Virus record (IMG/VR): IMGVR_UViG_3300018080_000112
Location: 1 to 64,000 of that record
Source: a virus
DNA: 64,000 nucleotides
Reading direction: 5' to 3' (one strand)
Positions 3,072-23,111 of this stretch are shown here, in pieces. A program made the translations under genes and the position numbers. Each line of letters begins with the position of its first letter. Positions within the stretch are counted from its first letter, which is position 1. Under the pieces are notes generated by a model. It made no database searches, was not told the origin of the DNA, and worked only from the letters and a program-made list of their open reading frames with translations.

Positions 3072-4409
3072 TTAGCCGGTTTTCTTGGGCATTTTGATTT
3101 TAAATGGTTGGTCACTGTACTCATACCCGTCATTCTTCTGGAGTGTTTTCAGATAGCGCGGATGGAAACCATCGACCGCTTTTCCATTGAGAGAACCAGA
3201 AACAGGTTTCAACATGAAAGATGGTTTTTGGCGAATCGTGATGCGACCTCGCCAGATTCCCTTCTTCGTTCCTTTCGTTACATCAGCTTTTACAAAGTCA
3301 CCCGTTTTGAACCCCTGACAAGCCTTGTTTCGAGTACGGTGAGCTTTCGCGAACCCGTGACTGTCTGGCTTGATCATCTTCCGGCTACCATGACCCATGC
3401 ACTTGATATACAGCGGCTTGACGCCGTTCGGTCGAAGATTATCAGGTGTGCTCGCGCCAACACAAGCGGCATCTTCCCAATGGGTCTTGCTCAGACCTCG
3501 CTTGATTCGATTGAACTTCGTGCGACCGCCAGACCCGCTTTCGAGAGGTAACCCGGTATCTTTTAGATGATTGAACAGACACCAGCGTGTTGAGTTGATC
3601 GCCGCCGCATCTCGCAAAGGAGCCTTCGCCTGTTTCAAGATCTTTTTGAGAAGGTCTGGTTTCTTTTTCAAGAACACTTTGATGTCCTTGTCACTCTTCC
3701 TCTTGTTACAAGGCGCACAGGAGAGCGTCAGATTCGAGATGCGATTGGTTCCACCCTTTGCCTTCGGTTGAATGTGTTCGACCTGTAAAGGGCGGTCTTC
3801 TTTCCCACAGTAGACACATTTGCGACCCCACTTCTCCAGGAGGTATTCTTTGACCTCGTACCCGTGGAGTTCGCCTTGCTGATATTCGACACCTTCGATC
3901 TCTGGGTTCTCCATCTTCTGGAAATCGAAGCTTACCAGTTCCATGCTGATTGCACCAACCGGAGCATACTTCATCAGCCGTCGTACCCACGTCATCGTGG
4001 TGAGGACCCGGTGCATCAAAGAAGGAGCCAGCCATCCTTTTGGTTTGGGTCTGTGTCGCCAGCGAGCCGGACGATACCTGGTCTTGCGAGCACGGCGATT
4101 CCGACGAACATCGCGGCGCTTTTTCATCTTGTCGGTGATTTGCCAGCCGCGATGATACAGAACAGCCGCCCAAACGATCTCACCGGTTTTGTCATCTAAC
4201 AGAACAATTCCGGTCTGTTTGCTACCGGGGTCAATTTTAATCCGAAGTGCCGGTGGTGTCTTTTCCTTGACTTCCTTTTTCATGATGATAGTAAAGGGGT
4301 AATAGCGCAACACCGCCGCCTTCCCGTCAGCCAGCAACTTCCTTCCTCTGCTTGGATGGCACGGATAAAGCGGGTTGCGCTCTGCATCTACGACAAAAAC
4401 TCGACTCAT
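3072..4409 (-). CDS. iscB: IscB RNA-guided endonuclease (RRXRR/PLMP, split RuvC, HNH)
   Basis: N-terminal VFVVDAERNPLYPCHP (PLMP domain), RuvC-I IDPGSK, Arg-rich bridge helix RRDVRRNRRARKTRYR, RuvC-II MELVSFD, HNH CVYC...EHIQPKAKGG..NL..SCAPCN, RuvC-III THWEDAACVG. Start set at MSRVF after a CAGGAG RBS. Confidence 0.95.
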   Translation of the reverse strand: MSRVFVVDAERNPLYPCHPSRGRKLLADGKAAVLRYYPFTIIMKKEVKEKTPPALRIKIDPGSKQTGIVLLDDKTGEIVWAAVLYHRGWQITDKMKKRRDVRRNRRARKTRYRPARWRHRPKPKGWLAPSLMHRVLTTMTWVRRLMKYAPVGAISMELVSFDFQKMENPEIEGVEYQQGELHGYEVKEYLLEKWGRKCVYCGKEDRPLQVEHIQPKAKGGTNRISNLTLSCAPCNKRKSDKDIKVFLKKKPDLLKKILKQAKAPLRDAAAINSTRWCLFNHLKDTGLPLESGSGGRTKFNRIKRGLSKTHWEDAACVGASTPDNLRPNGVKPLYIKCMGHGSRKMIKPDSHGFAKAHRTRNKACQGFKTGDFVKADVTKGTKKGIWRGRITIRQKPSFMLKPVSGSLNGKAVDGFHPRYLKTLQKNDGYEYSDQPFKIKMPKKTG

Positions 4410-8363: not shown

Positions 8364-8374
8364 GACGAACCCCC

Positions 8375-9004: not shown

Positions 9005-9035
9005 TCCAATGTTAGGACCTAACCTTCAGTCAGGT

Positions 9036-10490: not shown

Positions 10491-10505
10491 GGCAACGTAT
10501 CTCCT

Positions 10506-11402
10506 TTACGAGGCTGGCGCTACGAACACCGCACCATGATATTGCCAGTCATACGCAATTCGACCGTCACCATAGAAGATCAAGGTTCGAATGTTGTCAT
10601 GATCCGGCTCAAGGGTCAAACAATCCGACAGACACACATTTTGACCCTTCACATCGTAAATGGTCGCGCCGTGCGACAATGTCATCAGTTTCGCATGATC
10701 CGAAGCACCGACCCAATGATTGACGAATGTCAGATCTGACTCGTCTGGCGCATTGTCTTCCACATACGCCGCCACCCGTTTGTTTTCGTGGTCATTCGTG
10801 GCGCGAATCGGTCGAAGTGTCAGTTGAGCCACCTTGTGCTCACGACAAAAATCAATCACCTCCCGAACCCGCTTGGCGCTGTCAACCATATCTCTGTGCA
10901 TCATGATACAAAGGCGAATCGAGAACTCGAACTGATGCAGATACTGAATGATCGGAAGCAAGCCAGGATAGTCATCACCGTAGATTTTTCGGTTGTTCTC
11001 GTTGTGGATATCCACAGCAGACAATGCGATGGTATCCAGACCATTCACGTACCAATCATCTAAAACACGGTCAGTCAAATCCACGTCACTTCGTCCGCTG
11101 ATTGCGAGCTTTCCGATCTGTTTTCCGTTCGTTTGCAACTCGATCAGCGGAATATCAGGATGCAGATGCGACAGGTAATCGGTGATCTCCTCCGGGTACA
11201 ACGTAGGTTCTCCTTTGCCGGTCAAGAGAGCCGTCGTTGTTCCTCCTAGCTTTGCCAGCCGAATCGCTTTCCAGAGGTTCCGCACATTGATCTCTCGATT
11301 GCGCGGTATCTCCTCATAACCGGTTTGTTTGGACACACAGAACGGACAAACCGCGTCACAAGCTTGTGTCCCGACCACCACGCTCAACGTTTGAATCTTC
11401 AT
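10506..11402 (-). CDS. Radical SAM protein
   Basis: CDAVCPFC (CxxxCxxC), TGKGEPTL, LQTNG. Confidence 0.9.
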   Translation of the reverse strand: MKIQTLSVVVGTQACDAVCPFCVSKQTGYEEIPRNREINVRNLWKAIRLAKLGGTTTALLTGKGEPTLYPEEITDYLSHLHPDIPLIELQTNGKQIGKLAISGRSDVDLTDRVLDDWYVNGLDTIALSAVDIHNENNRKIYGDDYPGLLPIIQYLHQFEFSIRLCIMMHRDMVDSAKRVREVIDFCREHKVAQLTLRPIRATNDHENKRVAAYVEDNAPDESDLTFVNHWVGASDHAKLMTLSHGATIYDVKGQNVCLSDCLTLEPDHDNIRTLIFYGDGRIAYDWQYHGAVFVAPAS

Positions 11403-11428
11403 CTTTGTTTCTCCCCTGTACTCTTCGG

Positions 11429-12190
11429 TTATCTGTTCACCGCCGGACCAATGTAGGTTCCGTGTGGGTCCTCATTTTCTTGCAGTTCGCGCCCAATATC
11501 CAGCATCAACTCCTGAAGGCTCTGGAAGATGCGAAAGACCTTTTCCAGCGGAAAATCCACATCCGCCAGCCGTTTCCGGGCGTCATCAGAGGCGCTATCT
11601 GTTCCCTCTGTTCCATGCAAAACCTTTGAGAGACCCACAAGCTGTTTGTTCAATCCAGGAATGTATCGGTCCAGAAGGCGCTGTCTGGCTGTTGAGTTAC
11701 CAAGGTCCGCTTCTTCAACAATGCGAGTCGCAACATGCAACCGGTCAGCGAAAGCGATGATCCATGTTTCGATGGACGTGTTGTCTTTGTCATACTCCTC
11801 CGCCATATCTGACAAATACAACGGAAGCTTCTCTTTGTGGTGCTCTTCTCGCATCATATCAAAAGAAGCTTGCTCCATCTTCTGGCGAAGGTCCAGGTCA
11901 TAGCGCTTGAACGTTATCACCAGGTCCCCAGAGATTGATTCTGGGAGGTCATGGAGGAGCGCAAGGCTCAAGAGCCGCCCTTTGTCATACGCGCCCGGAA
12001 ATAGCTCTTCCGCGATGATTAAGCTGTACAACGCCACATAGTAAGAATGTTCCGCCACATTGTCTTTGCGCCGGAACTTGAACGTCGCATATCGGTCCAC
12101 AAAAGCAAGGTTGTTCACACTCCCTCGGACCAGTGCGCGGAACAAATCTTTTCTCTCTCGATTCTCTTGTGCTTCTTTCTCACTACTCAT
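11429..12190 (-). CDS. HD-domain 5'-deoxynucleotidase (YfbR-like)
   Basis: NVAEHSYYVA, ALLHDLPESISGD, FADRL. Confidence 0.85.
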   Translation of the reverse strand: MSSEKEAQENRERKDLFRALVRGSVNNLAFVDRYATFKFRRKDNVAEHSYYVALYSLIIAEELFPGAYDKGRLLSLALLHDLPESISGDLVITFKRYDLDLRQKMEQASFDMMREEHHKEKLPLYLSDMAEEYDKDNTSIETWIIAFADRLHVATRIVEEADLGNSTARQRLLDRYIPGLNKQLVGLSKVLHGTEGTDSASDDARKRLADVDFPLEKVFRIFQSLQELMLDIGRELQENEDPHGTYIGPAVNR

Positions 12191-12473
12191 TTGATTTTCC
12201 CTTTATAGCTTGTGGTATTTCAGTCATTTCCTCTTTTCCCTTTATGGCGTTTGCAATTTCGGTCATACCTTCTCTGATTTGCTGCGCGGTTAGAACTCCA
12301 ACTTCTTCCTTTGTCATAGCTTGAACGAGCGCGACAACATTCTCAGGATTGTCGCGGGGATACTCGCACCCGAATTCACCAGAAAGGAGCAACACAGCAT
12401 GACGAAAATAGCGAGATACCGTATTTTCTGCATGGGTCTGAATGGCGTCACAGTTTGACCGAATTCTGTTCAT
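12183..12473 (-). CDS. Hypothetical protein
   Basis: GAGG RBS; follows a class A promoter motif. Confidence 0.55.
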   Translation of the reverse strand: MNRIRSNCDAIQTHAENTVSRYFRHAVLLLSGEFGCEYPRDNPENVVALVQAMTKEEVGVLTAQQIREGMTEIANAIKGKEEMTEIPQAIKGKSNE

Positions 12474-12591
12474 CTTCTTACCTCACCTGAAAATTTTAAT
12501 TTTGAACTCTCACGTTTCACCTATAGAGACACACTTTTTCCCAAAAGCGCACCACGGAATCTTAATTTTCTTTGATAATTATGAAGAAAGG

Positions 12592-12819
12592 TCAGTCGTA
12601 GTCGATGTAATCATCCAGCCCACGGTCTATCAGAATCCAATTCGGACAATCAAATTGTTCCTCTTCCCCTTCCGTAACCTCAAAGAGACCGTCACACTTG
12701 ATGAATGGAAACCAGGCGCGTTCTCCGTCTTCAAGCTCTATCAATGCTGATGCTTCCGTTGTTGCCACAACTTCCGCTACTTTCAATATTGTGCTTCCCT
12801 CATCTTCAAAGGACATCAT
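12592..12819 (-). CDS. Hypothetical protein
   Basis: GGGAGG RBS. Confidence 0.55.
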   Translation of the reverse strand: MMSFEDEGSTILKVAEVVATTEASALIELEDGERAWFPFIKCDGLFEVTEGEEEQFDCPNWILIDRGLDDYIDYD

Positions 12820-12967
12820 AACCTCCCTTGTCGAATGTTAGGTCCTAACTCACCGCCCAAAAAGGAAATGCCATCCAACCAAGATGGCATTCCACAAACG
12901 AAGGAGTCTCAGCAAAATGACAAACAGCCAAACTGACTGTCTTTGAACCGATGTGGTACGCACCGGC

Positions 12968-13348
12968 TCAATACAAAAAGGGCTTTTCCAGCCCAACCCC
13001 CAACCGTGAACAAACACACTCAAATTCCTTGTCACCCTTCTTATAAGACATGACACAGTATCGTGCTTCTGACAGGTCGTGGTAGGTGAGATCTTCAAAT
13101 CCATCTTGTTGCTGTTTCATCTCCAACCAATCATGTTCCTTCTCGAACCGCTGTCCAGGGGAAAGCTCTCCGAATCGTTCAAGATACTCATCTTTCTCTT
13201 TTCTCAATGCCTCTGATTGTGCTCTCAACTCTTTGATCTTTGTCTGCGCCTCTTTCTCGTCTTGTGAGGACCACAACAAACCTTCAATCCCGTCAAAATT
13301 AACACGCACAACCACAAAGGTCTCCACGAGTGTTGTATCTTGACTCAT
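12968..13348 (-). CDS. Hypothetical protein
   Basis: ORF in the minus-strand run. Confidence 0.6.
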   Translation of the reverse strand: MSQDTTLVETFVVVRVNFDGIEGLLWSSQDEKEAQTKIKELRAQSEALRKEKDEYLERFGELSPGQRFEKEHDWLEMKQQQDGFEDLTYHDLSEARYCVMSYKKGDKEFECVCSRLGVGLEKPFLY

Positions 13349-13351
13349 TCC

Positions 13352-13702
13352 CTAATAACCCCTGTCATGACCTTGGCGATCCCGGTTATATCGGATTTTA
13401 ACGATTGTCAACAATTGGACCGCCTCTTTTCGCAACTCAGCCAATCTCTCCTCCGCTATGGCTACGTTGCCAAGCAAGATCTCCAGAACGTTATGCTCGT
13501 TTCGTGCTCGCTGGCGACGCAACACACCACCAGCCCATTGGACTCGCTCAAGAGCATCCGCAACATCTTCTCCCTTCCGATAGAGAAGGTCATACATATC
13601 ATCAACAGGACCGCTGTTACTCAAAATCTCAACCTCTTCTGGTTCCTCGTGCCGGTTACGATGCTCTGGTTCTCGTTTGTCAGCCCCTGTCATTTTCGGC
13701 AT
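13352..13702 (-). CDS. Hypothetical protein
   Basis: ORF in the minus-strand run. Confidence 0.55.
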   Translation of the reverse strand: MPKMTGADKREPEHRNRHEEPEEVEILSNSGPVDDMYDLLYRKGEDVADALERVQWAGGVLRRQRARNEHNVLEILLGNVAIAEERLAELRKEAVQLLTIVKIRYNRDRQGHDRGY

Positions 13703-13973
13703 CCTCTCGCTTGATTGTAGCCTTCCAATAACGTTTGTGATTCTTGTACTCCGAAAAAACTTTTATCCGACTGTGTCCCTTCTTTCGAATGGATCGAAAC
13801 AACATACCAACCTGATTCGGTGTGTATGCGCTACTCAAAGCGTTCGACCATTCACCCCCACACATACAGGTCTCTTCCAGGTTCTGAGAGGTTAAATAGG
13901 TGAAGATTGCGTCACCATATAGCTCAGCCAGTTCCGTTGCTGGTCTCTCCGGGTCTGTGCTCAAGCGTGCCAT
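13680..13973 (-). CDS. Hypothetical protein
   Basis: ORF in the minus-strand run. Confidence 0.5.
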   Translation of the reverse strand: MARLSTDPERPATELAELYGDAIFTYLTSQNLEETCMCGGEWSNALSSAYTPNQVGMLFRSIRKKGHSRIKVFSEYKNHKRYWKATIKREDAENDRG

Positions 13974-14214
13974 CCTTTTGCTCCTCTGGGGGGTCCTCTC
14001 GTGGCGCTACTTCCTTTGTGTGCGTCAAGAAAATTGTTGCCAGTCTGTTCATTTCACCATACGCATCCCGGCGGTTCTTTGCAGTTTTGTACCAGCAACC
14101 CTGGTCATATTCGTAATCAGCGGAAAGTAGCGCGTCATTCAGCCGCTGATTTGACGGATCTGCAAAGACAGTGATTTTGTGATTCGTGATGATTGTAATT
14201 GTTTCGGGTTCCAT
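13924..14214 (-). CDS. Hypothetical protein
   Basis: ORF in the minus-strand run. Confidence 0.5.
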   Translation of the reverse strand: MEPETITIITNHKITVFADPSNQRLNDALLSADYEYDQGCWYKTAKNRRDAYGEMNRLATIFLTHTKEVAPREDPPEEQKDGTLEHRPGETSNGTG

Positions 14215-14912
14215 GTGATACGCTCCGAATCAAGAAAGGGTCTCTTTGGGTATAAGAAATATCACGACCTGAAGCAAGCTGAATTACGAGTCCAACAAAT
14301 CTATCCGCGCATTTGTCTTCTCTGTGGGAAACATAATCACACCAAAAATACGGGTCAGAGAATGCATCTCGGTGACTACATCTGTCTGTTTCTGCAAATT
14401 CTTGCACCAGAAGCTTTGTGTGGTTCCATGTGCAATCTGGCGCGTCTGTTTGGCGTAACCCATTCGAGCTAACTGTGAAGGTACTCGGATATCACAGCCG
14501 TCCGGCAACACCACATGAATTTGGGGCAACTGTAACGCATCTGTGGTCACAAACGTTATTTGATGAATTGGGAACGTCATTTCTTTGTCTCCTTGTGTTA
14601 CTCATTTTACCTCTGTGTAATAGAGACACATCAAAGATCAAAACGGAACCAGTAGACAATAAAAAAAGCCGGAGAAGGTTTGTCCTTCCCCGGCTCACTG
14701 CCAACTGGCTCGCTCTAGCCAGTCATCGTAGAGGTGTGTTGTCTGTCAAAACATGAACATTGTTTCCAGGATCTCGCATGCTTCCTTGATGCCGTCGTTG
14801 CATTCGAGATAGGTGCGAAACAATTCCCAGAGAACCAGGAGCACGACAATGACAAGAAGGACCAGCAAAAGCTTCCAGGCTGTTGACCGACTCATCACTT
14901 GCTCCTGTTATT

Positions 14913-15323
14913 TGGAGATGGCGGGATTCGAACCCGCGTCTTGAAACGTCGCTGTAAACGACTCTACGTGTGTAGTCAATCCTTCGTTTCCTTCACCACC
15001 AGAGTCATCAGATTGACAGATTCTCTGGTCAGCTACATCTCATAGTTTAGCCAGCACTAGCGAGATATTCCAGTCGCAGGCGATCTCGTGTATTTTTGCG
15101 TTTCCAGCAAGCCCACAAGCGAACTCACTGGACCCGTGGCGGTCACGCCGCCATTGCCACCGGTTGTTCCACCCGGTAATCCGCCATACTGACGACCTTA
15201 CCAGACGAACGATGTGATTTATTATCGTTGGCAGTTATCAAGTTTTCAGGTTTTTACAGAGCCTCCTGAACCTCTGACACGCATCGGATACCACTCCGCC
15301 CCAATCGATACCAAGTCATCCCC
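14913..15323 (-). ncRNA. ssrA: tmRNA
   Basis: 5' GGGGATG pairs with 3' CATCTCC-A, giving G3-U70. T arm GCGGGTTCGAATCCCGC. Tag frame 15232-15143 follows ATAACT and encodes ANDNKSHRSSGKVVSMADYRVEQPVAMAA*. Confidence 0.92.
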
Positions 15324-15421
15324 TGGAGCCGGAGAGCGGAGTTTCACCGCTATCTGTGATCTTTGGGGAGATCAACCCCCAACAGACTGTGCGCCGCTCA
15401 ACGCAGCAACAGCACTCCGGC
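15324..15421 (-). ncRNA. Atypical tRNA-like RNA with encoded CCA
   Basis: Acceptor GCCGGAG/CTCCGGC followed by TCCA; T-like arm AGCGG-TGAAACT-CCGCT; no canonical anticodon loop. Confidence 0.6.
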
Positions 15422-15425
15422 AGAA

Positions 15426-15560
15426 TGTCGAGTTAAGGTGAGAGTCAAACAAGTCGTTGTTCTACCACTAAACTATCCCCCGGTAAAATCGGGGGACCTG
15501 GATTCGAACCAGGGTCTACGGAGTCGCATTCTATCTGTAATGACTCTGCAGTTCTCGACA
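15426..15560 (-). ncRNA. YrlA-like Y RNA (terminal stem plus permuted tRNA-like domain)
   Basis: Outer stems TGTCGAG/CTCGACA and AGAGTCA/TGACTCT enclose a T arm (CCTGGTTCGAATCCAGG), a loop-closed acceptor stem and then a D arm (TAGTTTAGTGGTAGAAC). Confidence 0.7.
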
Positions 15561-15631
15561 AAGTGTGTATTCGTTTTTCAAAGATACCAAGCTATAGAAC
15601 CATACGAGGATCTACCATCTTCGGTTTGAAA

Positions 15632-15847
15632 TCAAGCCCCCGGAACACCTGTGTAATCGTAGTGCTGGTCACCACGACAGAAGTTCAGCGCATTTGCCAA
15701 CGCGGTGTTTGGGGGGTTTCCCATCGAAAGAAAAAACAAGGTCGCATCCTTCAGCCGCAAAACATCATTCTGTTCCGTTTCGAACGCATCCAGGTTTGAC
15801 TTCCATTCTTCGACCGTGATTCCTTTTTTCTCTTCTTCCTCGTTCAT
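15632..15847 (-). CDS. Hypothetical protein
   Basis: GAGGAAGG RBS. Confidence 0.55.
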   Translation of the reverse strand: MNEEEEKKGITVEEWKSNLDAFETEQNDVLRLKDATLFFLSMGNPPNTALANALNFCRGDQHYDYTGVPGA

Positions 15848-15908
15848 GATCTTTCCTTCCTCTCGGTTGTTGACAAAATCAAGGCTGTCAATCCTCTCGG
15901 TTTTTCAG

Positions 15909-16430
15909 TTACTGGTTCTTGTACAGACGGCTCTCCACGGGTTCCGTGGTATTGGAGTCCTGGTATCGACCTTCGTACTCTATCCCGGTATCACCACAAA
16001 CTGCATGAAAAGAGATCTGACAAATCCGTATATTAGGATAAATAATGACAGGATGCAAACAGGCAAGTTCTAACGTCCACCGACCCCGGAAACCAACATC
16101 ACCAAAACCAGCCGTGATGTGAACGAAGATACCTAAACGACCCACAGAAGAGCGACCGTCAAGGCGCGGAACCAGGTCCCGCGTCTCTGTGTATTCGTTC
16201 GTAGATGCCAGGTACAACCGCCCTGGTTCCAGCATGAGACCAGACTCCGGAATTGTTATGAGCTTGGTCTCATTCTGTCCCTTCGCATCCAGCGGAAACT
16301 GGTCATAGACCTTCAACTGGTTACTCAAAGAGAGGTTGTAGCTGTTCGGGTTCAGGTGCTCCTCTTCGAAGGGTTCAATGATAATGTCACCGCCAAGGCG
16401 TTTTCGGATTTCATCTCCTGAAAGAATCAA
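15909..16430 (-). CDS. dcd: dCTP deaminase
   Basis: NPNSYNL, GRSSVGRLG, AGFGDVGFRGRWTLE, RICQISF, GRYQ. Confidence 0.93.
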   Translation of the reverse strand: MILSGDEIRKRLGGDIIIEPFEEEHLNPNSYNLSLSNQLKVYDQFPLDAKGQNETKLITIPESGLMLEPGRLYLASTNEYTETRDLVPRLDGRSSVGRLGIFVHITAGFGDVGFRGRWTLELACLHPVIIYPNIRICQISFHAVCGDTGIEYEGRYQDSNTTEPVESRLYKNQ

Positions 16431-16795
16431 AATGGACCTCCGTACTTCGTCACAGCGCCGCGACCTCGACCACCCTGGTTTCTCTTTGCTGGCATTGGAG
16501 AAGCTTGTACTGGTGCTGGTGCTGGTATGAAAGAGTTGTCAAGAAATGCACTGTCTTGTTGCGGACCTTGTTCGCCTTGCAGCGTGTACTGTACTTCTTT
16601 GCTGAACACTACAACAGCATGTGTTTCTTGCACAAGAAAAATGTTCTCACCAGACAACGCTCCCATCTGGACCCGTTGGTTGATCCAGGTGCGAGCTTCG
16701 TCCTTGTCCTGGAACTCTGGATGGTTCCCTACTTTCTTGTATGTGGGGTCAAGACCACCGGCGCTATAAAGAATCTCAAGCTTCTTTTCAATCAT
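16427..16795 (-). CDS. Hypothetical protein
   Basis: GGAG RBS; overlaps the dcd start. Confidence 0.6.
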   Translation of the reverse strand: MIEKKLEILYSAGGLDPTYKKVGNHPEFQDKDEARTWINQRVQMGALSGENIFLVQETHAVVVFSKEVQYTLQGEQGPQQDSAFLDNSFIPAPAPVQASPMPAKRNQGGRGRGAVTKYGGPF

Positions 16796-16831
16796 GGTAA
16801 ATCTCCAAAGTTAGGTCCTAACATTCTAACA

Positions 16832-16924
16832 TTTCAGGCTGTTGGCGTAAGGCTGTCAACATGAAAGCTGATATCGTCTCAAAACGGTTGACTTAGGAGG
16901 ATCAGCATGTTCAAAGCTGTGGAC
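16832..16924 (-). repeat. Degenerate mini-array D, just downstream of the omegaRNA
   Basis: TCAGGCTGTTGGC, TCAAAACGGTTGAC, TCAAAGCTGTGGAC. Confidence 0.45.
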
Positions 16925-16959
16925 AAGGATTGAGGATAAAATTTTGCATCCCCCAAATA

Positions 16960-17256
16960 GGTGACCCCCGAAACGCTCAACAGCCAGATGACGTTCCGGG
17001 GGTCATTTGCTTAATCTAATAAGCCATCTCTGCGCCCTCTATGAGAGAACTAACAGGTGTTCGACCGGTGAAGGTCTAGTGAGCCTCGCCAATGCTAATA
17101 ATGCTTGTCACATGAGGTCGGTGTCAGTCAGTACGCCTTGAAGCACCCTGTGTTCCTTCCCCACGAAAGAGCCGGAAACTGGCTCGCGCATTCCGGGTTT
17201 CATGACAAAACTAGCGTAGTCCCCGAAGAGACTGAGGCTGGTCAACATCTGGCTGA
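16960..17256 (-). ncRNA. Stand-alone HEARO/omegaRNA scaffold lacking its 5' guide/GTCAAC strand, with an added 3' hairpin
   Basis: GTTGACCAGCCTCAGTCTCTTCGGGGACTACG..GTCATGAAACCCGGAATGCGCGAGCCAGTTTCCGGCTCTTTCG...TGACAAGC...CATTGGCGAGGCTCAC follows the HEARO motif order, including the GAGCC/GGCTC pseudoknot. Confidence 0.85.
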
Positions 17257-17267
17257 TAAAGAAAAAG

Positions 17268-17377
17268 TAGTGAGGGTAGGATTCGAACCTACATCTGCCG
17301 GTATTTTCACACCCGCCGACTTTCCAATCCGGATCAAGGGGGTCAGCATTACCTGACTCCTTTTAGACCACCTCACC
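17268..17377 (-). tRNA. tRNA-Ser(GGA)-like with an expanded D arm
   Basis: Acceptor GGTGAGG/CCTCACT; T arm GTAGGTTCGAATCCTAC; loop TTGGAAA; long variable arm; extra hairpin in the D arm. Confidence 0.6.
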
Positions 17378-17381
17378 TTAA

Positions 17382-17466
17382 TGGACCGTGATGGATCTGC
17401 ACCACCGACCTCCGAGAGTTTACCTTGCGGTCAGCCCCCGGCGCTCTACTGCTGAGCTAACGATCC
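17382..17466 (-). tRNA. tRNA-like gene whose anticodon arm ends in a GCAA-capped hairpin
   Basis: Acceptor GGATCGT/ACGGTCC; D arm GCTC-AGCAGTA-GAGC; T arm GGTGG-TGCAGAT-CCATC. Confidence 0.6.
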
Positions 17467-17602
17467 CCGTCCAGATGACTTGAAAACTTTTTATTCTTTT
17501 TTCAAACAACATGTATATAGAGACACACCCTACGTCAAAGTGTAACCACTTTTTTTTCAATAAAATTCCACTTTTTTATTCTCCCTTTGAAATCAACGAG
17601 TT

Positions 17603-17794
17603 TCAAGGCTGTTGACACCGGGCTAGTTGAAAAAAGGCTGTTGACTGCGATCTGCAAGACTCTCAAGGCTGTTGACAATGGGGAAATGCCCTTTCAAGGC
17701 TGTTGAGGGGGTGGCAAAGACCTGGCAAGACTGTTGATAGTTAGGTAGAGCGGGGGCACGGCTGTTGACCAGGATTAATGGACCGGCGGTTGAC
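17603..17794 (-). repeat. Short-repeat mini-array E (7 repeats)
   Basis: Repeat ends 17616, 17645, 17676, 17707, 17738, 17769, 17794. Confidence 0.85.
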
Positions 17795-17805
17795 AGAACG
17801 TAGAA

Positions 17806-18471
17806 TCAGAAATCGGTTTCTTGCATGTTGACCTGAACGACCTGTTTGACCGTCGCGCCGAACTTCTTCACCAGCCGGATAATGAAGTAATCACCACTTG
17901 GGAGTTCTCCCTTTTCCAGCCGGTTTTTGACCCATATGGTTGCTTCCGGGACACCAGGGAAGATCAGCGGATCTTCATCCGGTTCCACAACCGGGATCAA
18001 GATCTCGTCTTTGTATCTCGGAATCGGTTCTTCTGGGTTCGTTCCGCGCATCCGCTCCTCTGTGAGACCCAAGCTGAAAAGATGCTCGTCAAGAGGAAGA
18101 GAACGGTAGACCGTCACCTTCCCCAGAGAGCGACCCTTCTTCTTTGTCGCTTCGCCGTTCGCCTTTTTGGTTGTCTTTTTGGGTTCCTTCTCCGGAGGCG
18201 TGGACCCTTGACTTTGGGTCTCCGGTGCGGTCTCCTTTGTCTCAGTTGTAGATTCCGGCGAAGAACCTGTTCCCTCCTTGGTCTCGCCGGAGGTCTCACC
18301 TGTCTGTGGCGTCACCTTCTTGAACCCCGTCTTCTTTTTGCCAGCCGTCTCCGCTCCTGCAATCGGTTTTCCAGTTGGCATCGGTGCTTGTTTCACGTCT
18401 GGTTTGTCCTGACCTTCTTCCAAAAGTGATTGTTGGGTGTCTGGATCTGACATTCTTGTTCTCCCTTTCAT
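17806..18471 (-). CDS. Hypothetical protein with a low-complexity K/E/T N-terminus
   Basis: ORF track. Confidence 0.65.
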   Translation of the reverse strand: MKGRTRMSDPDTQQSLLEEGQDKPDVKQAPMPTGKPIAGAETAGKKKTGFKKVTPQTGETSGETKEGTGSSPESTTETKETAPETQSQGSTPPEKEPKKTTKKANGEATKKKGRSLGKVTVYRSLPLDEHLFSLGLTEERMRGTNPEEPIPRYKDEILIPVVEPDEDPLIFPGVPEATIWVKNRLEKGELPSGDYFIIRLVKKFGATVKQVVQVNMQETDF

Positions 18472-18484
18472 TGTTCATGACTGT

Positions 18485-18952
18485 CTACCAGTCAGCTTCG
18501 CTCATTCTTCGTGCGATGCTTCGTTTGAGCTTCTGTTTGTTTGTTAACTTCACCGCCGGTTTCGGTGGTTCCGGTGGTGGTTTCGGTGCGGCTTTTTTCT
18601 TTGCCACGGCTTTCTTCTTCTTTACAGCGGGTTTCTTTGGTTTTGGTGTCGCGCTTCCTGGATCTGGAAAGATGAGATCCGTTTGTGCATCGTACCGATA
18701 TTGTTTGTCACCGCTCCGTCCTAATTTCGCACGCACATTCTTTCTTGCATATTCGTAATCTTTTATGACCACAGTTCCGGTAGCACCAATCTTTCCGTAG
18801 CGAACTCGAACCTCTCCTGTTGTACCCGTTCCATAAACTTCCCAGAATTTGTTGTGCTTCCCGTTTTCATTGAGTAGACGAACCTTCCATTCTTCGCCCT
18901 TTGCGGCTAAATGCGCGGCTCCTTTCCATGTAACGTATGGTCTTTCCATCAT
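18485..18952 (-). CDS. WGR-domain protein with a basic tail
   Basis: HNKFWEV...VRVRYGKIGATG. Confidence 0.7.
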   Translation of the reverse strand: MMERPYVTWKGAAHLAAKGEEWKVRLLNENGKHNKFWEVYGTGTTGEVRVRYGKIGATGTVVIKDYEYARKNVRAKLGRSGDKQYRYDAQTDLIFPDPGSATPKPKKPAVKKKKAVAKKKAAPKPPPEPPKPAVKLTNKQKLKRSIARRMSEADW

Positions 18953-19174
18953 TCCGTTCCTTTGTGCTTCCTTTTACTTCCCTTGTGCTTCCTTCTGGTC
19001 AAGATCACTTGACCCGTCAACCCGACTGTTCACTTATAGAGACACATCTTTTTCCAAAGTGACACCACTATTTTTCATTTTGTGTCTGACGTGTGTCGCG
19101 TTGTGACATAGATGAGAAAAAAGTGGAGGGGGACCGAAAGGTTAGGACCTAACTATTCAGTATTCTACTTCTAA

Positions 19175-19834
19175 CTATTCAGAGAAAAGACCATCTTCAG
19201 TTTCGGTTTGCCAGGGAGGAACTTGTTGAATCGCAGCAAGCTGGTCTGTTCGCCTGTTTCTTAACAAGTTGACAAGGGTGCTTCTGGATTGTCGAAAATA
19301 GCGCCAGTATCGACGCATCAGTTCAATTGCTGTGTGGATGGGAATATCAAGTGTACTCTTGATTTGGAGAACCATCGCGCCGTCTCGCTCATCTCTCTCC
19401 AGGTCCACATACCAGTCACACCACCCATAATAGTAGTACGCATGCGCAAAAGCCTGTTTTGCACCTGTAAGAGGTCCGCGAAGCGCCGCCGCCACAAGAG
19501 ACACATGACCTTCGTCATTATCCCAGAGAAGGGTCTCCATCAGCCCTATGTGCAAGTACTCCAGCGCTTCAACGGATGCGTTGCCCTCCAGATACTTCGC
19601 CAGTACACCGAGAGCATACGTTATCATCCCACTTGTCTCTTTGTTCTCCGTGATCCGCTTCTGGAGTACCTGGAAAACGTAGTCATAAGCGAACCGGTGC
19701 AAGATCACATCTGGAACCTCATTCTTTAGGAAACGTTTGACCTTTAGCCGCTGATTGTCATCCATCTCCGGCATGTAGAAATAGGGTTTAACAATCATCC
19801 CCACACCCGCCCTGTGCTTTGAACATTCTGACAA
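19175..19834 (-). CDS. Hypothetical protein
   Basis: ORF track. Confidence 0.6.
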   Translation of the reverse strand: MSECSKHRAGVGMIVKPYFYMPEMDDNQRLKVKRFLKNEVPDVILHRFAYDYVFQVLQKRITENKETSGMITYALGVLAKYLEGNASVEALEYLHIGLMETLLWDNDEGHVSLVAAALRGPLTGAKQAFAHAYYYYGWCDWYVDLERDERDGAMVLQIKSTLDIPIHTAIELMRRYWRYFRQSRSTLVNLLRNRRTDQLAAIQQVPPWQTETEDGLFSE

Positions 19835-20340
19835 ATATCACACATGTTGCAACTCCGGCACTGCGGAGAGAGATCAAAATCACCGATCTTTTTTGGCGGA
19901 TTTGGACACCAGCCGTCACTTATATCCACTATGGGGGGAAACTCTGCACCATCCGCCCGCTTCGGAATCGGAGTCTCTTTCTTGATCACATGTTTGTACT
20001 TGCGGACCCCACGAAATCCTTTCATCTCTGGACCTTCCACAGTATAAAAGGGACCGCTCCGTTGAATATACTCTCCTGGTTGCCAAACCGCGCCCGTAGT
20101 CTCACAAACCCATGACCTCTGGCAATACCAGAGACCTACGATCTTCATCCAGCCGCGAACACGACCATTCCAGACAGTGAAGCATCGGTGACCGCCACAC
20201 ATATCTTTCGGAAAGTACCGGGTTCTGTAGTTGATAAAAGATTTACCGTCAGCCACGGCGATCAATTCAGCTTCGTAATCATCCCACCGCGTTGTTTTGG
20301 GGACCGTCACAATCCAATCTATCATGCTTTGTGGGTCCAT
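19795..20340 (-). CDS. Hypothetical protein
   Basis: Start moved to MDPQSM. Confidence 0.6.
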   Translation of the reverse strand: MDPQSMIDWIVTVPKTTRWDDYEAELIAVADGKSFINYRTRYFPKDMCGGHRCFTVWNGRVRGWMKIVGLWYCQRSWVCETTGAVWQPGEYIQRSGPFYTVEGPEMKGFRGVRKYKHVIKKETPIPKRADGAEFPPIVDISDGWCPNPPKKIGDFDLSPQCRSCNMCDICQNVQSTGRVWG

Positions 20341-20852
20341 TCTTTTTCCCCTTTCAGTCTCTTCATCACAGCATAAGCTGGTTGAAGGTCCTTCTCTGTG
20401 TGGATACTTCCGCCGGTGTTCAGGTCCAAATACCACTGAACCACAGCCAACGGGTCATCCAGGTCATTGACAAAGAACTTGAACCGGTGACGAATCGGGT
20501 TCAACTCATCTTCGAACTCGTAGATCTTTAGACCGAACACCGGGACGTTGCCAGCAAGGAAGGAAAGAACAGCCTCCAGGCGCTGTTTTCCATCCACCAA
20601 CTCCATCGCGGTATGTTCTCCGCGATGCCAGCCGGGAGCATTCCAGAAGAGATCACCTCCGGACATTCCACCCTTCATACGAAACTCCAGGTATGCGATC
20701 TGTTGTTCCAAGGTCCAGACGTACCCGCGCTGATACTCCGGGTCCAATTCAATAGGAACACCAAATCCCTCGAAATGGCGACGTATCGAGGTCCACGCCA
20801 CATCAATGCAATAGTTCGCCTGTGACATTCTGGGAATATCTTCAAATCTCAT
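20322..20852 (-). CDS. DUF262 (ParB-like/GmrS N-terminal) protein
   Basis: PEYQRGYVW, LVDGKQRL, LNTGG. Confidence 0.85.
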   Translation of the reverse strand: MRFEDIPRMSQANYCIDVAWTSIRRHFEGFGVPIELDPEYQRGYVWTLEQQIAYLEFRMKGGMSGGDLFWNAPGWHRGEHTAMELVDGKQRLEAVLSFLAGNVPVFGLKIYEFEDELNPIRHRFKFFVNDLDDPLAVVQWYLDLNTGGSIHTEKDLQPAYAVMKRLKGEKEWTHKA

Positions 20853-20861
20853 CTATCCCTC

Positions 20862-21281
20862 TCAATGAAACAACGAAGCGCTGACAGAACTCAGGTTCTT
20901 CTTCATCGCCTCGATTGCTTCCTCTTTTGTGGCTCCTTCTCCGCTGGCGAAGTTGTCACGGAAGTTCTCGTGGAACGGGTTGCAGTCGCATGCCTCAAAT
21001 TCTTCCTCTGTCATCATTGTCGAGCCAAACAACGCAAATCCGATACGAGCCTCAAAGACACCGTCTTTCTCTTGAACATGGACCTCTGTGGTGCCATCAA
21101 CGCCAACATCCTGACACATGAAGATCGAGATCTTGTCATCTTGCGCCGGTTCTTCTTCTGGCGTCACCTCTGCAGGTTTCTCTTCTGGTTCTTTTACGGG
21201 TCTTTCCGCTTTCGGTATCAAATCCCAACCTTTGATGCGGTTCATCTGTAACTCTCTTCCTTCTATTCTTGTTTCTTCCAA
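20862..21281 (-). CDS. Hypothetical protein
   Basis: ORF track. Confidence 0.6.
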   Translation of the reverse strand: MEETRIEGRELQMNRIKGWDLIPKAERPVKEPEEKPAEVTPEEEPAQDDKISIFMCQDVGVDGTTEVHVQEKDGVFEARIGFALFGSTMMTEEEFEACDCNPFHENFRDNFASGEGATKEEAIEAMKKNLSSVSASLFH

Positions 21282-21577
21282 CCCTCTAAAGAGGTCAAAT
21301 TGTTATACAACGCTGGCATAGGGAGTCCATCTGTATCCTCCGTTCCAGACCACCGGGTCTCTGGCATCATCAAAATTGGACCTTCCCACAACTCCACACG
21401 ACCACTGTTCTCCGGAAGAACAAGCGGACCTTGTTCGCTGAACACCACGCCGCTCATCAAAATCTTGTGTGATGGTCCTGGTGCTAGTCCCTTTGGCATC
21501 ACCACCATACGACCGCGAACTAAATGCCGGTTTGGTCTCTCATGTATCAGCGCCAGTAACTTCTCAGTGTCAGTCAC
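21263..21577 (-). CDS. Hypothetical protein
   Basis: GGAGG RBS. Confidence 0.5.
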   Translation of the reverse strand: MTDTEKLLALIHERPNRHLVRGRMVVMPKGLAPGPSHKILMSGVVFSEQGPLVLPENSGRVELWEGPILMMPETRWSGTEDTDGLPMPALYNNLTSLEGWKKQE

Positions 21578-22226
21578 TGGACACCTCCATCTTCTTCCAT
21601 TCCCATTGTTCTTTTGATTGTTTCCATTCCCACGTCACTGTACCGTCCTCGTGGCGGGTGAACTCACAGACGTATGTTGGCGGAATCTCACCTTCTGGTG
21701 TCACATCGAAGTGTGGTGATATTGCGTGATACTCGAACACGCGGCGCATCCACATCATCTCGCACCGGACCACGAGAACACCTTCCATTGACCGAATCAC
21801 ATCTTTCGGATTGTCCATCAAGAAAGCTTGAGAGATCTCAAACTTCCCAATGCGCCGGTGTATATCCTTGTACCGGTCCTCTGGCTTTTCTTGTGGCTCT
21901 TCCCCTTCCACAACAAGCTCAAGTTTCTCTGGAGGAACCAGACAAGTACAACCCTTTTGCATTGGATGCGCCTCTACAGGAACAATCGTGTGATGCACCT
22001 CGCACTTGTGCCACCAATGACCATTTTTGCACTTGGCGTTCCGCTTCATACACTTGGCGATAATCTCCGGCGGCTCGCCACATTCCGGACACAAATAGTC
22101 CTTGTACCTCTCTTTGCGAACCTCTGGATCTTTTCTATCTTTCTTTGCTTCGATCATAACCTTTCCCCTTTCCCAAATATCCGAGTTTCCCGTACTTTGT
22201 GAGCTTCGAACTGTTATTGACAGCAC
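21570..22226 (-). CDS. Hypothetical Cys/His-rich protein
   Basis: CPECG and CKNGHWW; start is likely internal (MIEAKK). Confidence 0.6.
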   Translation of the reverse strand: MLSITVRSSQSTGNSDIWERGKVMIEAKKDRKDPEVRKERYKDYLCPECGEPPEIIAKCMKRNAKCKNGHWWHKCEVHHTIVPVEAHPMQKGCTCLVPPEKLELVVEGEEPQEKPEDRYKDIHRRIGKFEISQAFLMDNPKDVIRSMEGVLVVRCEMMWMRRVFEYHAISPHFDVTPEGEIPPTYVCEFTRHEDGTVTWEWKQSKEQWEWKKMEVSSD

Positions 22227-22421
22227 ACTCCCACAATCCCATCAAAAATATCAGCACAAAATAAACCACCATAATCAACGCAAAAAGTTGTCCTGTCGAA
22301 AACTTTTTATCTGCATAAGACACATCACAGCGGATGAATAACACAAGCCACATCACAAAGGCGAACATCAGCGAGCTTACCAGCGACTGAATCAACACAT
22401 CTTTGATGGTCTTGATTGGTT

Positions 22422-22712
22422 TCATGATGAGCTTTCCTTCTTTTTGACTCCGCTTGTGAGAAGGTCGGCGATCATTCCAGCCGCATGTCGGGTTGATTCC
22501 GTGTAAGGATTGTCACCCCAATCCAGACTACGGTCATTCTTCGGTCCTTCTGGATTCTCGCGGTCATCATAACCACACTCACGACACACATGCGCTTCGT
22601 TCGCCATCTGTTTCAACTGTGCTTCTGATTTGCCGAGACCGGTCTTGTAACCGACGTATGAATAACTGCGCCCACACTCCGGGTTCGCACATCTGAAAAT
22701 ATATTGCTCCAT
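22422..22712 (-). CDS. Hypothetical zinc-ribbon protein
   Basis: CANPECG and CRECG. Confidence 0.6.
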   Translation of the reverse strand: MEQYIFRCANPECGRSYSYVGYKTGLGKSEAQLKQMANEAHVCRECGYDDRENPEGPKNDRSLDWGDNPYTESTRHAAGMIADLLTSGVKKKESSS

Positions 22713-22724
22713 TTTGTTCCTCTT

Positions 22725-22767
22725 TCAGGCTGTTGACTACATAGATACGCGCTTCAAGGCTGTTGAC
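22725..22767 (-). repeat. Short-repeat mini-array F (2 repeats)
   Basis: Repeat ends 22737 and 22767. Confidence 0.7.
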
Positions 22768-22784
22768 TTAACGTGATCTTAACT

Positions 22785-23111
22785 TCAAGCTGACGGTCGC
22801 TTCTTTGTCACATCCTGCACAACAGCGGAGAGCGCCGCCGTGCTGTTGCTGACCAGAAAAGAGATCCGGTCTGGACTCTCCGGGTCAACAACAACGAGCA
22901 AGGACCCCACATCGGTCTCAACCTTGTTGACCTCTGAGTGTTCCGGACCAACACGGGTGAACTTTTGTCCGGTGTGCTCCTCTGCATACTCCATAATCTC
23001 GCTGTGAAGCTTCAGATAGACCTCGTAACCCAGAAGAGCGATTGTTGGTTCTTCTCCGACCTTTTCAAAGAAGCTCTTCGCCGCCGTATTTATCTCTGTT
23101 CTCGTACTCAT
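22785..23111 (-). CDS. Hypothetical protein (paralog of 30500-31162)
   Basis: Shares LLGYExYLxL and VxDP..R.xFLV. Confidence 0.6.
   Translation of the reverse strand: MSTRTEINTAAKSFFEKVGEEPTIALLGYEVYLKLHSEIMEYAEEHTGQKFTRVGPEHSEVNKVETDVGSLLVVVDPESPDRISFLVSNSTAALSAVVQDVTKKRPSA

What the first reader, a model, noticed from the sequence alone, without database searches (positions are those of the whole stretch)
16960..17256. Orphan omegaRNA in a tRNA operon with a 3' hairpin that displays an anti-repeat
Seen: the scaffold starts about 12 nt after the tRNA-Ser-like gene, so tRNA processing could generate a guide-less 5' end. Its 3' end forms the hairpin TGACCCCCGGAACG/CGTTTCGGGGGTCA, whose loop reads TCATCTGGCTGTTGAG. 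GGCTGTTGA in that loop is the exact 9-nt complement of the repeat core TCAACAGCC. CATCTGGCTG is also the exact complement of the RNA's own 5' end, CAGCCAGATG (17246-17255). A second site, TGTTGAC (17241-17247), pairs with GTCAACA of the repeat. Inference: mutually exclusive pairings that could act as a capture-and-handoff or auto-inhibition switch for loading very short crRNAs. Arrays E and D flank this operon.
Basis: partly seen in the sequence, partly recalled or inferred. Interest (0 to 1): 0.85.

Follow-up and report, generated by a model that had tools for sequence, protein, structure and literature searches.

The report
Unlinked phage IscB guide-RNA scaffold
A 144-kb uncultured phage keeps the scaffold RNA of its small Cas9-ancestor nuclease (IscB) 12.6 kb from the nuclease gene, behind two tRNA-like genes and without the usual hairpin that carries the guide, so the guide probably comes from elsewhere, perhaps from short repeat units scattered over the genome; that last step is not shown.

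Summary
The RNA at 17074-17257(-) is a real IscB omegaRNA scaffold: Rfam HEARO gives 58 bits (E 5e-11), which is below the family's 83-bit gathering score. It is the only scaffold in the genome. A sister phage has a 90%-identical copy with compensatory changes.

It is unlinked rather than orphan. An intact iscB (3072-4409) lies 12.6 kb away with no omegaRNA of its own, and sister phages share this layout.

Its guide-adaptor hairpin, the counterpart of Cas9's repeat:anti-repeat duplex, is cut to 4-5 bp. A phage-specific 3' extension ends in the reported 14-bp hairpin. That stem shows a G.U to U-A compensatory change, and its 16-nt loop is invariant.

The loop, the 5' tail and an apical segment each complement the genome's 14-nt repeat. 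Three matches of 7 nt or more are seen where 0.2 are expected.

Guide supply by the repeat units is plausible but unproven. The repeats are degenerate, dyad-symmetric, phased at 31 bp and clustered at promoters, so an operator role remains a strong rival.

This scan has noted split-guide phage IscB systems before, on other genomes. Verdict: a new variant of a known kind, and the proposed switch mechanism is untested.

The parts
17512..17562 (-). Promoter of the tRNA-like/omegaRNA operon, one of a family of 16 phage promoters (GTGGT-N5-TTTGAC...TGTGTCTCTATA).
   Evidence: One search found 16 copies, all on the minus strand. The same motif stands upstream of the sister phage's operon (L116:4526-4560). 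Function is inferred from sequence only.
17382..17466 (-). tRNA-like gene 1, with a 13-nt insertion in the anticodon arm.
   Evidence: Found only by relaxed ARAGORN. It has a canonical D arm and an acceptor stem.
17268..17377 (-). tRNA-like gene 2, 110 nt. The acceptor and T arms are perfect and the central part is enlarged.
   Evidence: Rfam tRNA gives 33 bits and relaxed ARAGORN finds it. In the sister phage a tRNA-like gene with a 34-nt anticodon-loop insertion stands in the same place at 46.9 bits.
17256..17267 (-). 12-nt leader between the tRNA-like 3' end and the conserved scaffold. It is not conserved.
   Evidence: Alignment A1. The sister phage has an unrelated 15-nt leader, UUUCAAGGAUUGAAA, that is itself a small hairpin.
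17074..17257 (-). IscB omegaRNA scaffold core (HEARO-type).
   Evidence: Rfam RF02033 gives 58 bits and E 5e-11 over the whole model. This is below the gathering score of 83. It is the only hit in the genome. The central stem has two double compensatory changes against the sister phage.
17241..17255 (-). 5' tail CAGCCAGAUGUUGAC. It is the remaining 3' strand of the guide-adaptor hairpin. CAGCCAGAUG pairs with the 3' loop and UGUUGAC pairs with the repeat.
   Evidence: The cis mini-hairpin is worth only -2.8 kcal/mol. The segment is identical in the sister phage.
17127..17142 (-). Apical segment UUCAAGGC-GUAC-UGAC of the long hairpin. It is a near-complete anti-repeat (8 + 4 bp).
   Evidence: -16.1 kcal/mol. 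It lies in a 12-nt insertion that cyanobacterial omegaRNAs lack.
16962..17073 (-). Phage-specific 3' extension of the scaffold, made of three or four hairpins.
   Evidence: It is not covered by HEARO. It is conserved in the sister phage, with G-C to A-U and G.U to U-A compensatory changes.
16962..17005 (-). Terminal 14-bp hairpin with the 16-nt loop UCAUCUGGCUGUUGAG (16976-16991).
   Evidence: It is not terminator-like by the scan's rule.
16833..16924 (-). Array E: four degenerate repeat units directly downstream of the scaffold. No predicted terminator lies between them and the scaffold.
   Evidence: The sister phage has five or six units in the same place.
17603..17769 (-). Array D: six repeat units upstream of the operon's promoter.
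16810..16822 (-). Palindrome GTTAGGACCTAAC between array E and the next ORF. It may be the end or a processing site of the operon transcript.
   Evidence: The same palindrome stands in the sister phage.
3072..4409 (-). iscB, 445 aa, intact, with no omegaRNA in front of it.
   Evidence: NF040563 gives 447 bits against a cut-off of 175. Pfam finds RRXRR and HNH. Solved IscB structures match. Only about 40 nt separate it from the upstream ORF.

Best explanation
This is the gene for the scaffold RNA (omegaRNA) of the phage's own IscB nuclease. It has been moved away from iscB and rebuilt as a trans-acting, tracrRNA-like RNA.

Shown:
- It has its own phage promoter.
- It lies behind two tRNA-like genes.
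- It keeps the nexus and central stems of the HEARO-type omegaRNA.
- It has lost nearly all of the guide-adaptor hairpin.
- It carries a conserved 3' extension.

Inferred:
- Host tRNA-processing enzymes trim the 5' end to a short leader that is not conserved, so no guide comes in cis.
- IscB binds this scaffold.
- The guide is delivered in trans by '17-nt spacer + GUCAACAGCCUUGA' units. Their first six bases, GUCAAC, are the missing 5' strand of the adaptor hairpin and would pair with the scaffold's GUUGAC.
- The 3' hairpin loop can hold either the scaffold's 5' tail (10 bp) or the repeat core (9 bp). Together with the apical anti-repeat segment, it probably helps to capture or position the short repeat.
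For: Identity of the RNA:
- HEARO match with E 5e-11 over the whole model.
- It is the only scaffold in the 144-kb genome.
- A sister phage holds a full-length homolog, L116:4932-5235, at about 90% identity. The independent HEARO central stem shows U-A to A-U and U-A to G-C changes. RNAalifold predicts 98 pairs, 7 of them changed on both sides and none broken.

Partner nuclease:
- iscB is intact at 447 bits and its catalytic motifs are visible.
- No omegaRNA stands in front of it in this phage or in two sister contigs.
- More than 50 of 80 IMG/VR IscB loci have a scaffold ending about 30 nt before the gene.

Missing guide adaptor:
- The guide-adaptor hairpin is a 14-bp duplex in OgeuIscB and corresponds to Cas9's repeat:anti-repeat duplex (PMC9640706).
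- Here only UCAGC/GUUGA is left, worth -2.8 kcal/mol.
- In other viral omegaRNAs the 6 nt before CCAG vary. In 24 of 41 cases the exact complement lies 41-96 nt upstream.
- Here no GUCAAC lies upstream, but 44 of 82 repeat units start with GTCAAC, each preceded by a variable stretch of about 17 nt.

Complementarity and context:
- Three anti-repeat matches of 7 nt or more where 0.2 are expected.
- The loop-to-5'-tail complement of 10 nt occurs in 0.1% of shuffles.
- All these sites are invariant in the sister phage.
- An array directly follows the scaffold in both phages.
- Some spacers are conserved with 0-3 mismatches in 17 across three sister phages, although the units have moved between arrays.
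- CRISPR-associated IscB with a repeat/anti-repeat is a known type (PMC12660989, PMC10734277).
Against: - The Rfam score is below the curated threshold.
- No pairing between repeat and scaffold, or between loop and 5' tail, is supported by covariation, because the only homolog is identical at all those positions.
- The contiguous anti-repeat stretches are short (7, 8+4 and 9 bp).
- By duplex energy alone the repeat is not exceptional. 8.8% of random genomic 15-mers and 2% of shuffles bind the RNA at least as well.
- Only 20 of 82 units are perfect 14-mers. That is far more degenerate than CRISPR repeats.
- The repeat is a dyad (TCAA-N5-TTGA) phased at 31 bp. It often lies just upstream of promoters or just before ribosome-binding sites, as operators would.
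- No spacer has a match in the phage itself or in 1.26 Mb of fetched loci.
- The genome has no Cas1.
- On the single-sequence MFE fold, 13 substitutions keep pairs and 17 break them. About half of the broken pairs involve the non-homologous leader.
Confidence: 0.5

Rival explanations
1. The scaffold is a real trans omegaRNA for IscB, but the 14-nt boxes are not guides. They are operator-like or UTR control elements of the phage's transcription programme, bound by a protein as DNA or RNA. The complementarity in the omegaRNA is then either coincidence or serves a regulatory contact, with the 3' domain acting like a small RNA on box-containing UTRs.
For: - The box is a dyad, TCAA-N5-TTGA, with period 31 (26 cases), 32 (14) or 30 (11), about three helical turns.
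- Arrays abut members of a 16-copy promoter family on either side. The last box often lies 5-20 nt before a Shine-Dalgarno sequence.
- The copies are degenerate, with only 20 of 82 perfect.
- There is no Cas1 and no protospacer.
- An unrelated phage with 36% G+C has similar CAACAG(C/T)CTT iterons in a long non-coding region.
Against: - It does not explain why the box begins with exactly the hexamer that the scaffold's orphan GUUGAC strand needs.
- It does not explain three anti-repeat segments concentrated in this one RNA.
- It does not say where IscB gets a guide.
- All 82 boxes have one orientation relative to transcription.
- Several 17-nt 'linkers' are conserved across sister phages, while truly neutral flanks such as the leader are not.
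Confidence: 0.3
2. The scaffold uses its own 5' flank as guide, as transposon omegaRNAs do. On this view it is the relic of an IS200/IS605-type insertion next to a tRNA gene. The short cis hairpin suffices, and the guide (leader plus tRNA 3' end) directs IscB against sister genomes that lack the insertion.
For: - In IS elements the guide is the flank of the insertion, and IscB cuts the donor joint (PMC10734277).
- The variable leader sits exactly where a guide would.
- Engineered IscB guide RNAs tolerate large truncations of the adaptor/repeat hairpin (PMC12660989).
Against: - tRNA 3' processing would leave only 12 nt (here) or 15 nt (sister phage), whereas 16-nt guides were used for IscB (PMC12660989).
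- The sister's leader folds on itself (UUUCAA-GGA-UUGAAA).
- The cis hairpin is worth only -2.8 kcal/mol and loses a pair in the sister phage.
- There is no transposase and no element ends.
- The unlinked layout is stable in two phages.
Confidence: 0.12
3. The RNA is a decaying remnant without function, and the hairpin is simply a transcript end.
For: - The score is below the Rfam threshold.
- The adaptor hairpin is lost.
- The hairpin lies at the 3' end of the conserved block.
Against: - It is 90% identical between phages whose proteins are 78-86% identical, with structure-preserving substitutions.
- It has a dedicated promoter.
- iscB is intact.
- The hairpin has a 16-nt loop and no U tract.
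Confidence: 0.05

Closest known systems
Transposon-encoded IscB omegaRNA (Rfam HEARO, RF02033; OgeuIscB omegaRNA, PMC9640706)
   Same: - A full-length match to the HEARO model.
[quoted passage not shown]
- The cognate protein is a typical IscB, 58% identical to cyanobacterial IscBs whose omegaRNAs score 104-131 bits.
   Different: - It is not upstream of iscB but 12.6 kb away.
- The guide-adaptor hairpin is cut from about 40-60 nt to 17 nt.
- The long hairpin has a 12-nt insertion.
- It carries a 110-nt 3' extension.
- It is fused to tRNA-like genes under its own promoter.
- There is no transposase and there are no element ends.
CRISPR-associated IscB, such as DelIscB (Altae-Tran et al. 2021 as described in PMC12660989 and PMC10734277)
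   Same: An IscB whose guide RNA is thought to be divided into a repeat-bearing part and an anti-repeat-bearing scaffold. The repeat:anti-repeat duplex stands in place of the adaptor hairpin.
   Different: - In DelIscB the array and anti-repeat lie in one non-coding RNA just upstream of the gene, with a long duplex.
- Here the scaffold is unlinked.
- The candidate repeats are only 14 nt, degenerate and spread over about 20 intergenic sites.
- The anti-repeat is in short pieces.
Cas9 tracrRNA:crRNA (type II CRISPR)
   Same: The logic is the same: a trans scaffold plus short guide RNAs joined by repeat:anti-repeat pairing. The scaffold gene has its own promoter next to an array.
   Different: - There is no Cas1 or Cas2.
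- The pairing is 7-12 bp rather than more than 20 bp, so an RNase III substrate is unlikely.
- The effector is IscB, which has no REC lobe.
Stoperator or operator arrays of phages (13-14-bp asymmetric sites in intergenic regions, all oriented with transcription; from my own knowledge of cluster A mycobacteriophages, not checked in a paper here)
   Same: Short, co-oriented intergenic boxes in many copies near promoters.
   Different: The boxes here form phased tandem arrays of up to 18 units, and they are complementary to a structured RNA of the same phage.

Membership tests
IscB omegaRNA (Rfam HEARO RF02033) | Covariance-model match at or above the curated gathering score (83 bits). | tested here: not met
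   58 bits with E 5e-11 over model positions 1-211. The sister copy scores 53 bits. The match is significant but below threshold. The shortfall comes mainly from the missing adaptor hairpin.
IscB omegaRNA (Rfam HEARO RF02033) | Conserved nexus and central stems, kept by compensatory change. | tested here: met
   In the HEARO central stem, U-A changes to A-U, U-A to G-C and G.U to G-C between the two phages. The first internal hairpin swaps U-A and U.G.
IscB omegaRNA (Rfam HEARO RF02033) | A guide-adaptor hairpin directly 3' of the guide (a 14-bp duplex in OgeuIscB, PMC9640706). | tested here: not met
   Only UCAGC-CAGAU-GUUGA is present, at -2.8 kcal/mol. No GUCAAC lies within 110 nt upstream. 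24 of 41 other viral scaffolds have the exact partner 41-96 nt upstream.
IscB omegaRNA (Rfam HEARO RF02033) | Encoded immediately upstream of iscB. | tested here: not met
   The scaffold is at 17074-17257 and iscB at 3072-4409. iscB has about 40 nt to the upstream ORF.
IscB omegaRNA (Rfam HEARO RF02033) | A cognate IscB protein with RuvC, HNH and PLMP motifs in the same genome. | tested here: met
   NF040563 gives 447 bits, Pfam finds RRXRR and HNH, and the protein aligns to solved IscBs.
IscB omegaRNA (Rfam HEARO RF02033) | Binds IscB and directs DNA cleavage. | not testable with these tools
   No RNA runs are listed. This needs biochemistry.
CRISPR-associated IscB / tracrRNA-like scaffold | An array of repeats and variable spacers in the transcribed orientation. 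| tested here: met
   82 units, with period mostly 30-32 and spacers without information content. An array directly follows the scaffold.
CRISPR-associated IscB / tracrRNA-like scaffold | An anti-repeat in the scaffold that pairs with the repeat, supported by covariation. | tested here: inconclusive
   Complementary stretches of 7, 8+4 and 9 nt exceed chance. They do not vary in the only homolog.
CRISPR-associated IscB / tracrRNA-like scaffold | Spacers that match foreign or host DNA next to a common motif. | tested here: not met
   No match in the phage's own genome or in 1.26 Mb of fetched loci, apart from homologous array units. Public collections could not be searched for 17-mers in a meaningful way.
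Intrinsic terminator | A G+C-rich stem, a loop of 3-8 nt and a U tract. | tested here: not met
   The loop is 16 nt and the tail reads CCUAUUUGGGGG. The scan does not call it.
TIGR-Tas arrays | Two alternating 8-12-nt repeats with 9-nt spacers, next to a Nop-domain Tas protein (PMC12045711). | tested here: not met
   There is a single 14-nt repeat with 17-nt spacers, and the genome has no Nop-domain match.

The most novel reading that the evidence does not exclude
A phage has split the IscB guide RNA further than any described system. One unlinked scaffold released by tRNA processing serves about 80 very short guide units (17-nt spacer plus 14-nt repeat) embedded in the untranslated regions of its own operons. 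The repeat rebuilds the missing adaptor hairpin in trans, helped by a bipartite anti-repeat and a 3' loop that alternately holds the scaffold's 5' tail and the repeat.
Probability: 0.3. Interest if true: 0.85.

Novelty: new variant of a known kind. Interest (0 to 1): 0.62.

Why it matters
IscB omegaRNAs are thought to have given rise to the Cas9 tracrRNA:crRNA pair when the guide-adaptor hairpin was split. Natural intermediates are few. This RNA is a naturally truncated, trans-encoded scaffold that selection has kept in at least two phages. Its layout (tRNA-like gene, then scaffold, then array) resembles engineered tRNA-gRNA cassettes.

If the 14-nt units are its guides, three things would follow:
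- A repeat:anti-repeat contact of 7-12 bp can be enough.
- Guide arrays can be dispersed inside ordinary operons.
- Compact split-guide IscB tools become conceivable.

If the units are operators instead, the finding still defines a domesticated phage IscB whose source of guides is unknown.

Tried and rejected
- Expression: no RNA holder is listed among public runs for this stretch.
- Natural variation: contigs of four DNA runs laid on 7000-23000 were essentially identical to the window in this region, so they gave no covariation.
- Relatives by single proteins in IMG/VR: IscB gave none. dCTP deaminase gave nothing above 58% identity and no HEARO hit in the two closest loci (L008, L009). Terminase gave none. 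GenBank phages reach at most 29% terminase identity.
- The repeat-pair pattern in IMG/VR gave one contig. It is an unrelated phage with 36% G+C and no IscB or HEARO match.
- The 20-mer CAGCCAGATGTTGACCAGCC in JGI metagenomes gave 22 hits. One was a true relative, cut at the contig end (L095). The others lie in unrelated sequences that show no omegaRNA features; the two that I scanned with Rfam (L096, L097) have no HEARO match. IMG/VR gave none.
- A profile of four phage-type IscBs in IMG/VR gave 80 loci at 59% identity or less. Nearly all have an ordinary cis scaffold, so none served as a covariation partner.
- Spacers against the phage's own genome and against all fetched loci gave only homologous array units.
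- TIGR-Tas was rejected, as was an intrinsic terminator.
- Mapping the sister's substitutions on the single-sequence MFE fold gave a mixed result, 13 kept and 17 broken. The MFE pairs the non-homologous leader with distant segments. I therefore rely on the Rfam structure and on local helices.
- Duplex energy alone does not single out the repeat.

Full report
**Setting.** The window is the first 64 kb of a 143,941-bp IMG/VR virus record. Nearly all genes are on the minus strand. The record has a large terminase and DNA-metabolism genes, a tmRNA, and no close isolate relative. Near-identical DNA occurs in sediment and seawater metagenomes from several studies.

**The observation.**
- The hairpin spans 17005-16962. 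Its stem has 14 bp, one of them G.U, and folds at -29.2 kcal/mol. Its 16-nt loop is UCAUCUGGCUGUUGAG.
- GGCUGUUGA in the loop is the exact complement of the repeat core.
- CAUCUGGCUG in the loop is the exact complement of CAGCCAGAUG at 17255-17246.
- UGUUGAC at 17247-17241 complements GUCAACA.

These matches exceed chance. A perfect loop-to-RNA complement of 10 nt or more arose in 25 of 20,000 shuffles. Anti-repeat matches of 7 nt or more occur 99 times on the minus strand of the whole genome, about 0.2 per 300 nt. This RNA holds three.

It is followed by GUAC-UGAC, so the segment is an 8+4-bp near-complete anti-repeat. It lies in a 12-nt insertion that cyanobacterial omegaRNAs lack.

**What the RNA is.**
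- Rfam's HEARO model, which describes the IscB omegaRNA, matches 17074-17257(-) over its full length. The score is 58 bits with E 5e-11, below the curated 83 bits.
- It is the only such match in the genome.
- The genome encodes an intact IscB at 3072-4409. It scores 447 bits on NF040563, carries RRXRR and HNH domains, and aligns to solved IscBs with the PLMP-like, RuvC and HNH motifs visible.
- iscB has only about 40 nt to the upstream ORF, so it has no omegaRNA of its own.
- Two sister contigs with IscBs 89% and 86% identical show the same tight packing.
- In contrast, more than 50 of 80 IscB loci in IMG/VR have a scaffold ending about 30 nt before the gene. So do the cyanobacterial relatives at 56-58% identity, whose omegaRNAs score 104-131 bits.

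The RNA is therefore unlinked rather than orphan, and it is the only candidate scaffold for this IscB.

**A homolog.** Through the neighbouring dCTP deaminase (78% identical) I reached contigs of a sister phage (L116, L117, L118; L095 holds the 5' part).
- The order there is the same: array, promoter, tRNA-like gene, scaffold, 3' hairpin, array, and iscB about 11.5 kb further on.
- The two RNAs are about 90% identical, while their proteins are 78-86% identical.
- On the independent Rfam structure, the central stem shows U-A to A-U, U-A to G-C and G.U to G-C.
- RNAalifold predicts 98 pairs. Seven changed on both sides, seven changed on one side, and none is broken. That structure is fitted to the alignment, so it is not an independent test.
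- On the single-sequence MFE fold the result is mixed, 13 kept and 17 broken. About half of the broken pairs involve the non-homologous leader.
- The 3' extension (17073-16962) is part of the conserved RNA. One small hairpin changes G-C to A-U and the terminal hairpin changes G.U to U-A.
- The 16-nt loop, the first 20 nt and UCAAGGC are invariant.
- The leader between the tRNA-like gene and the scaffold is unrelated in the two phages (12 and 15 nt). In the sister phage it forms its own small hairpin. This argues against a guide in cis.

**The missing part.**
- In OgeuIscB the guide is joined to the scaffold by a 14-bp guide-adaptor hairpin. [quoted passage not shown]
- Here only UCAGC-CAGAU-GUUGA remains, at -2.8 kcal/mol, and the sister phage loses one of its pairs.
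- Across other viral omegaRNAs the six bases before CCAG vary. In 24 of 41 cases their exact complement lies 41-96 nt upstream. This is family-level covariation of the hairpin.
- For GUUGAC the required partner is GUCAAC. None lies upstream here.
- GTCAAC does open 44 of the 82 units of the genome's 14-nt repeat (G/A)TCAACAGCCTTGA. Each unit is preceded by a variable stretch of about 17 nt without information content.
- All units point the same way as transcription, and an array directly follows the scaffold in both phages.

This is the arrangement expected if the omegaRNA had been split in the adaptor loop, as described for CRISPR-associated IscB (PMC12660989, PMC10734277). The scan has also noted split-guide IscB systems in other phage genomes. 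Those notes are leads, not evidence.

**The 3' hairpin.** It is not a canonical terminator. Its loop can pair with the scaffold's 5' tail (10 bp, -19.3 kcal/mol) or with the repeat core (9 bp, -15.9 kcal/mol). The two pairings share GGCUG, so they exclude each other.

An alternative reading is that the loop:5'-tail helix forms the distal part of the adaptor helix, and repeat:UGUUGAC forms the proximal part. These two overlap by only two bases, and together they approach the 14-15 bp of a normal adaptor helix. Nothing in the data chooses between these readings, because all the bases involved are invariant.

**Reasons for caution.**
- The boxes are degenerate. Only 20 of 82 are perfect.
- They are dyad-symmetric (TCAA-N5-TTGA) and phased at about 31 bp.
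- They cluster around a 16-copy phage promoter family, on either side of it, or lie just before ribosome-binding sites. Operators or UTR control elements would look like this.
- There is no Cas1.
- No spacer has a target in the phage's own genome or in the fetched loci.
- Duplex energy alone does not single out the repeat.

On the other side, several spacers are conserved with 0-3 mismatches in 17 in three sister phages, although the units sit in different arrays. The truly unconstrained leader has diverged completely.

**Verdict.**
- That this is a conserved, trans-encoded IscB scaffold with a truncated adaptor hairpin and a phage-specific 3' domain is well supported (about 0.85).
- That it serves the IscB at 3072-4409 is likely (about 0.7).
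- That the dispersed units are its guides is plausible (about 0.4).
- That the 3' loop acts as a switch is speculative (about 0.2).

It is a new variant of a known kind.

Noticed in passing
whole genome, e.g. window 17512-17562, 7340-7400, 12500-12560, 14600-14660, 19010-19070, 34120-34180, 48520-48580, 60200-60260 (all minus strand): A family of 16 near-identical promoter-like elements, (A/C)GTGGT-N5-TTTGAC/GGA-N~9-TGTGTCTCTATA, all on the minus strand. Sister phages have it too. It may mark one temporal class of phage transcripts or a phage-specific sigma factor.
   Followed up: partly
window 17268-17377 and 17382-17466 (-); L116:4807-4908: tRNA-like genes with normal acceptor, D and T arms but 13-34-nt insertions in the anticodon arm. 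The insertions are too short for group I introns. The genes may be processing handles rather than decoding tRNAs.
   Followed up: partly
window 16847-16878 (-); L116:5304-5334: One unit of the downstream array reads AUCAGCUUUCAUGUUGACAGCCUU in both phages. It resembles the scaffold's own 5' end, AUCAGCCAGAUGUUGACCAGCCU, as if it were a second, decayed scaffold start.
   Followed up: no
window 10282, 10313, 16892, 16924, 81179 (unit positions); L116:187, 4384, 9542, 9573, 10881; L119:6163, 6194, 6287: Spacer-plus-repeat units are conserved with 0-3 mismatches among three sister phages but sit in different arrays. The units seem to move between arrays while keeping their spacer sequence.
   Followed up: partly
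G001 = IMGVR_UViG_3300045988_085929, minus strand about 18300-18365 (L200/L201): An unrelated phage contig with 36% G+C has two boxes, TTCAACAGCCTTGC, 31 nt apart. One of their spacers (...CTTGCCACCCC) nearly equals the unit at window 17707. The boxes lie in a 1-kb non-coding region full of CAACAG(C/T)CTT iterons. This could be horizontal transfer of a unit or a shared host factor.
   Followed up: partly
L166:11405-11585 and L195:12581-12752: Two IMG/VR phage contigs carry a second omegaRNA scaffold in addition to the one in front of iscB. The L195 copy has no exact adaptor partner upstream, so it may be another trans scaffold.
   Followed up: no
window 16810-16822 (-): The palindrome GTTAGGACCTAAC lies between the downstream array and the next start codon. 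It is conserved in the sister phage (L116:5401-5413). Another reader noted the same palindrome at many gene ends.
   Followed up: no
window 14912-15323 (-): A phage-encoded tmRNA (Rfam 133 bits) lies 1.6 kb downstream of the scaffold operon. The sister contig L119 has one too, at 149 bits.
   Followed up: no
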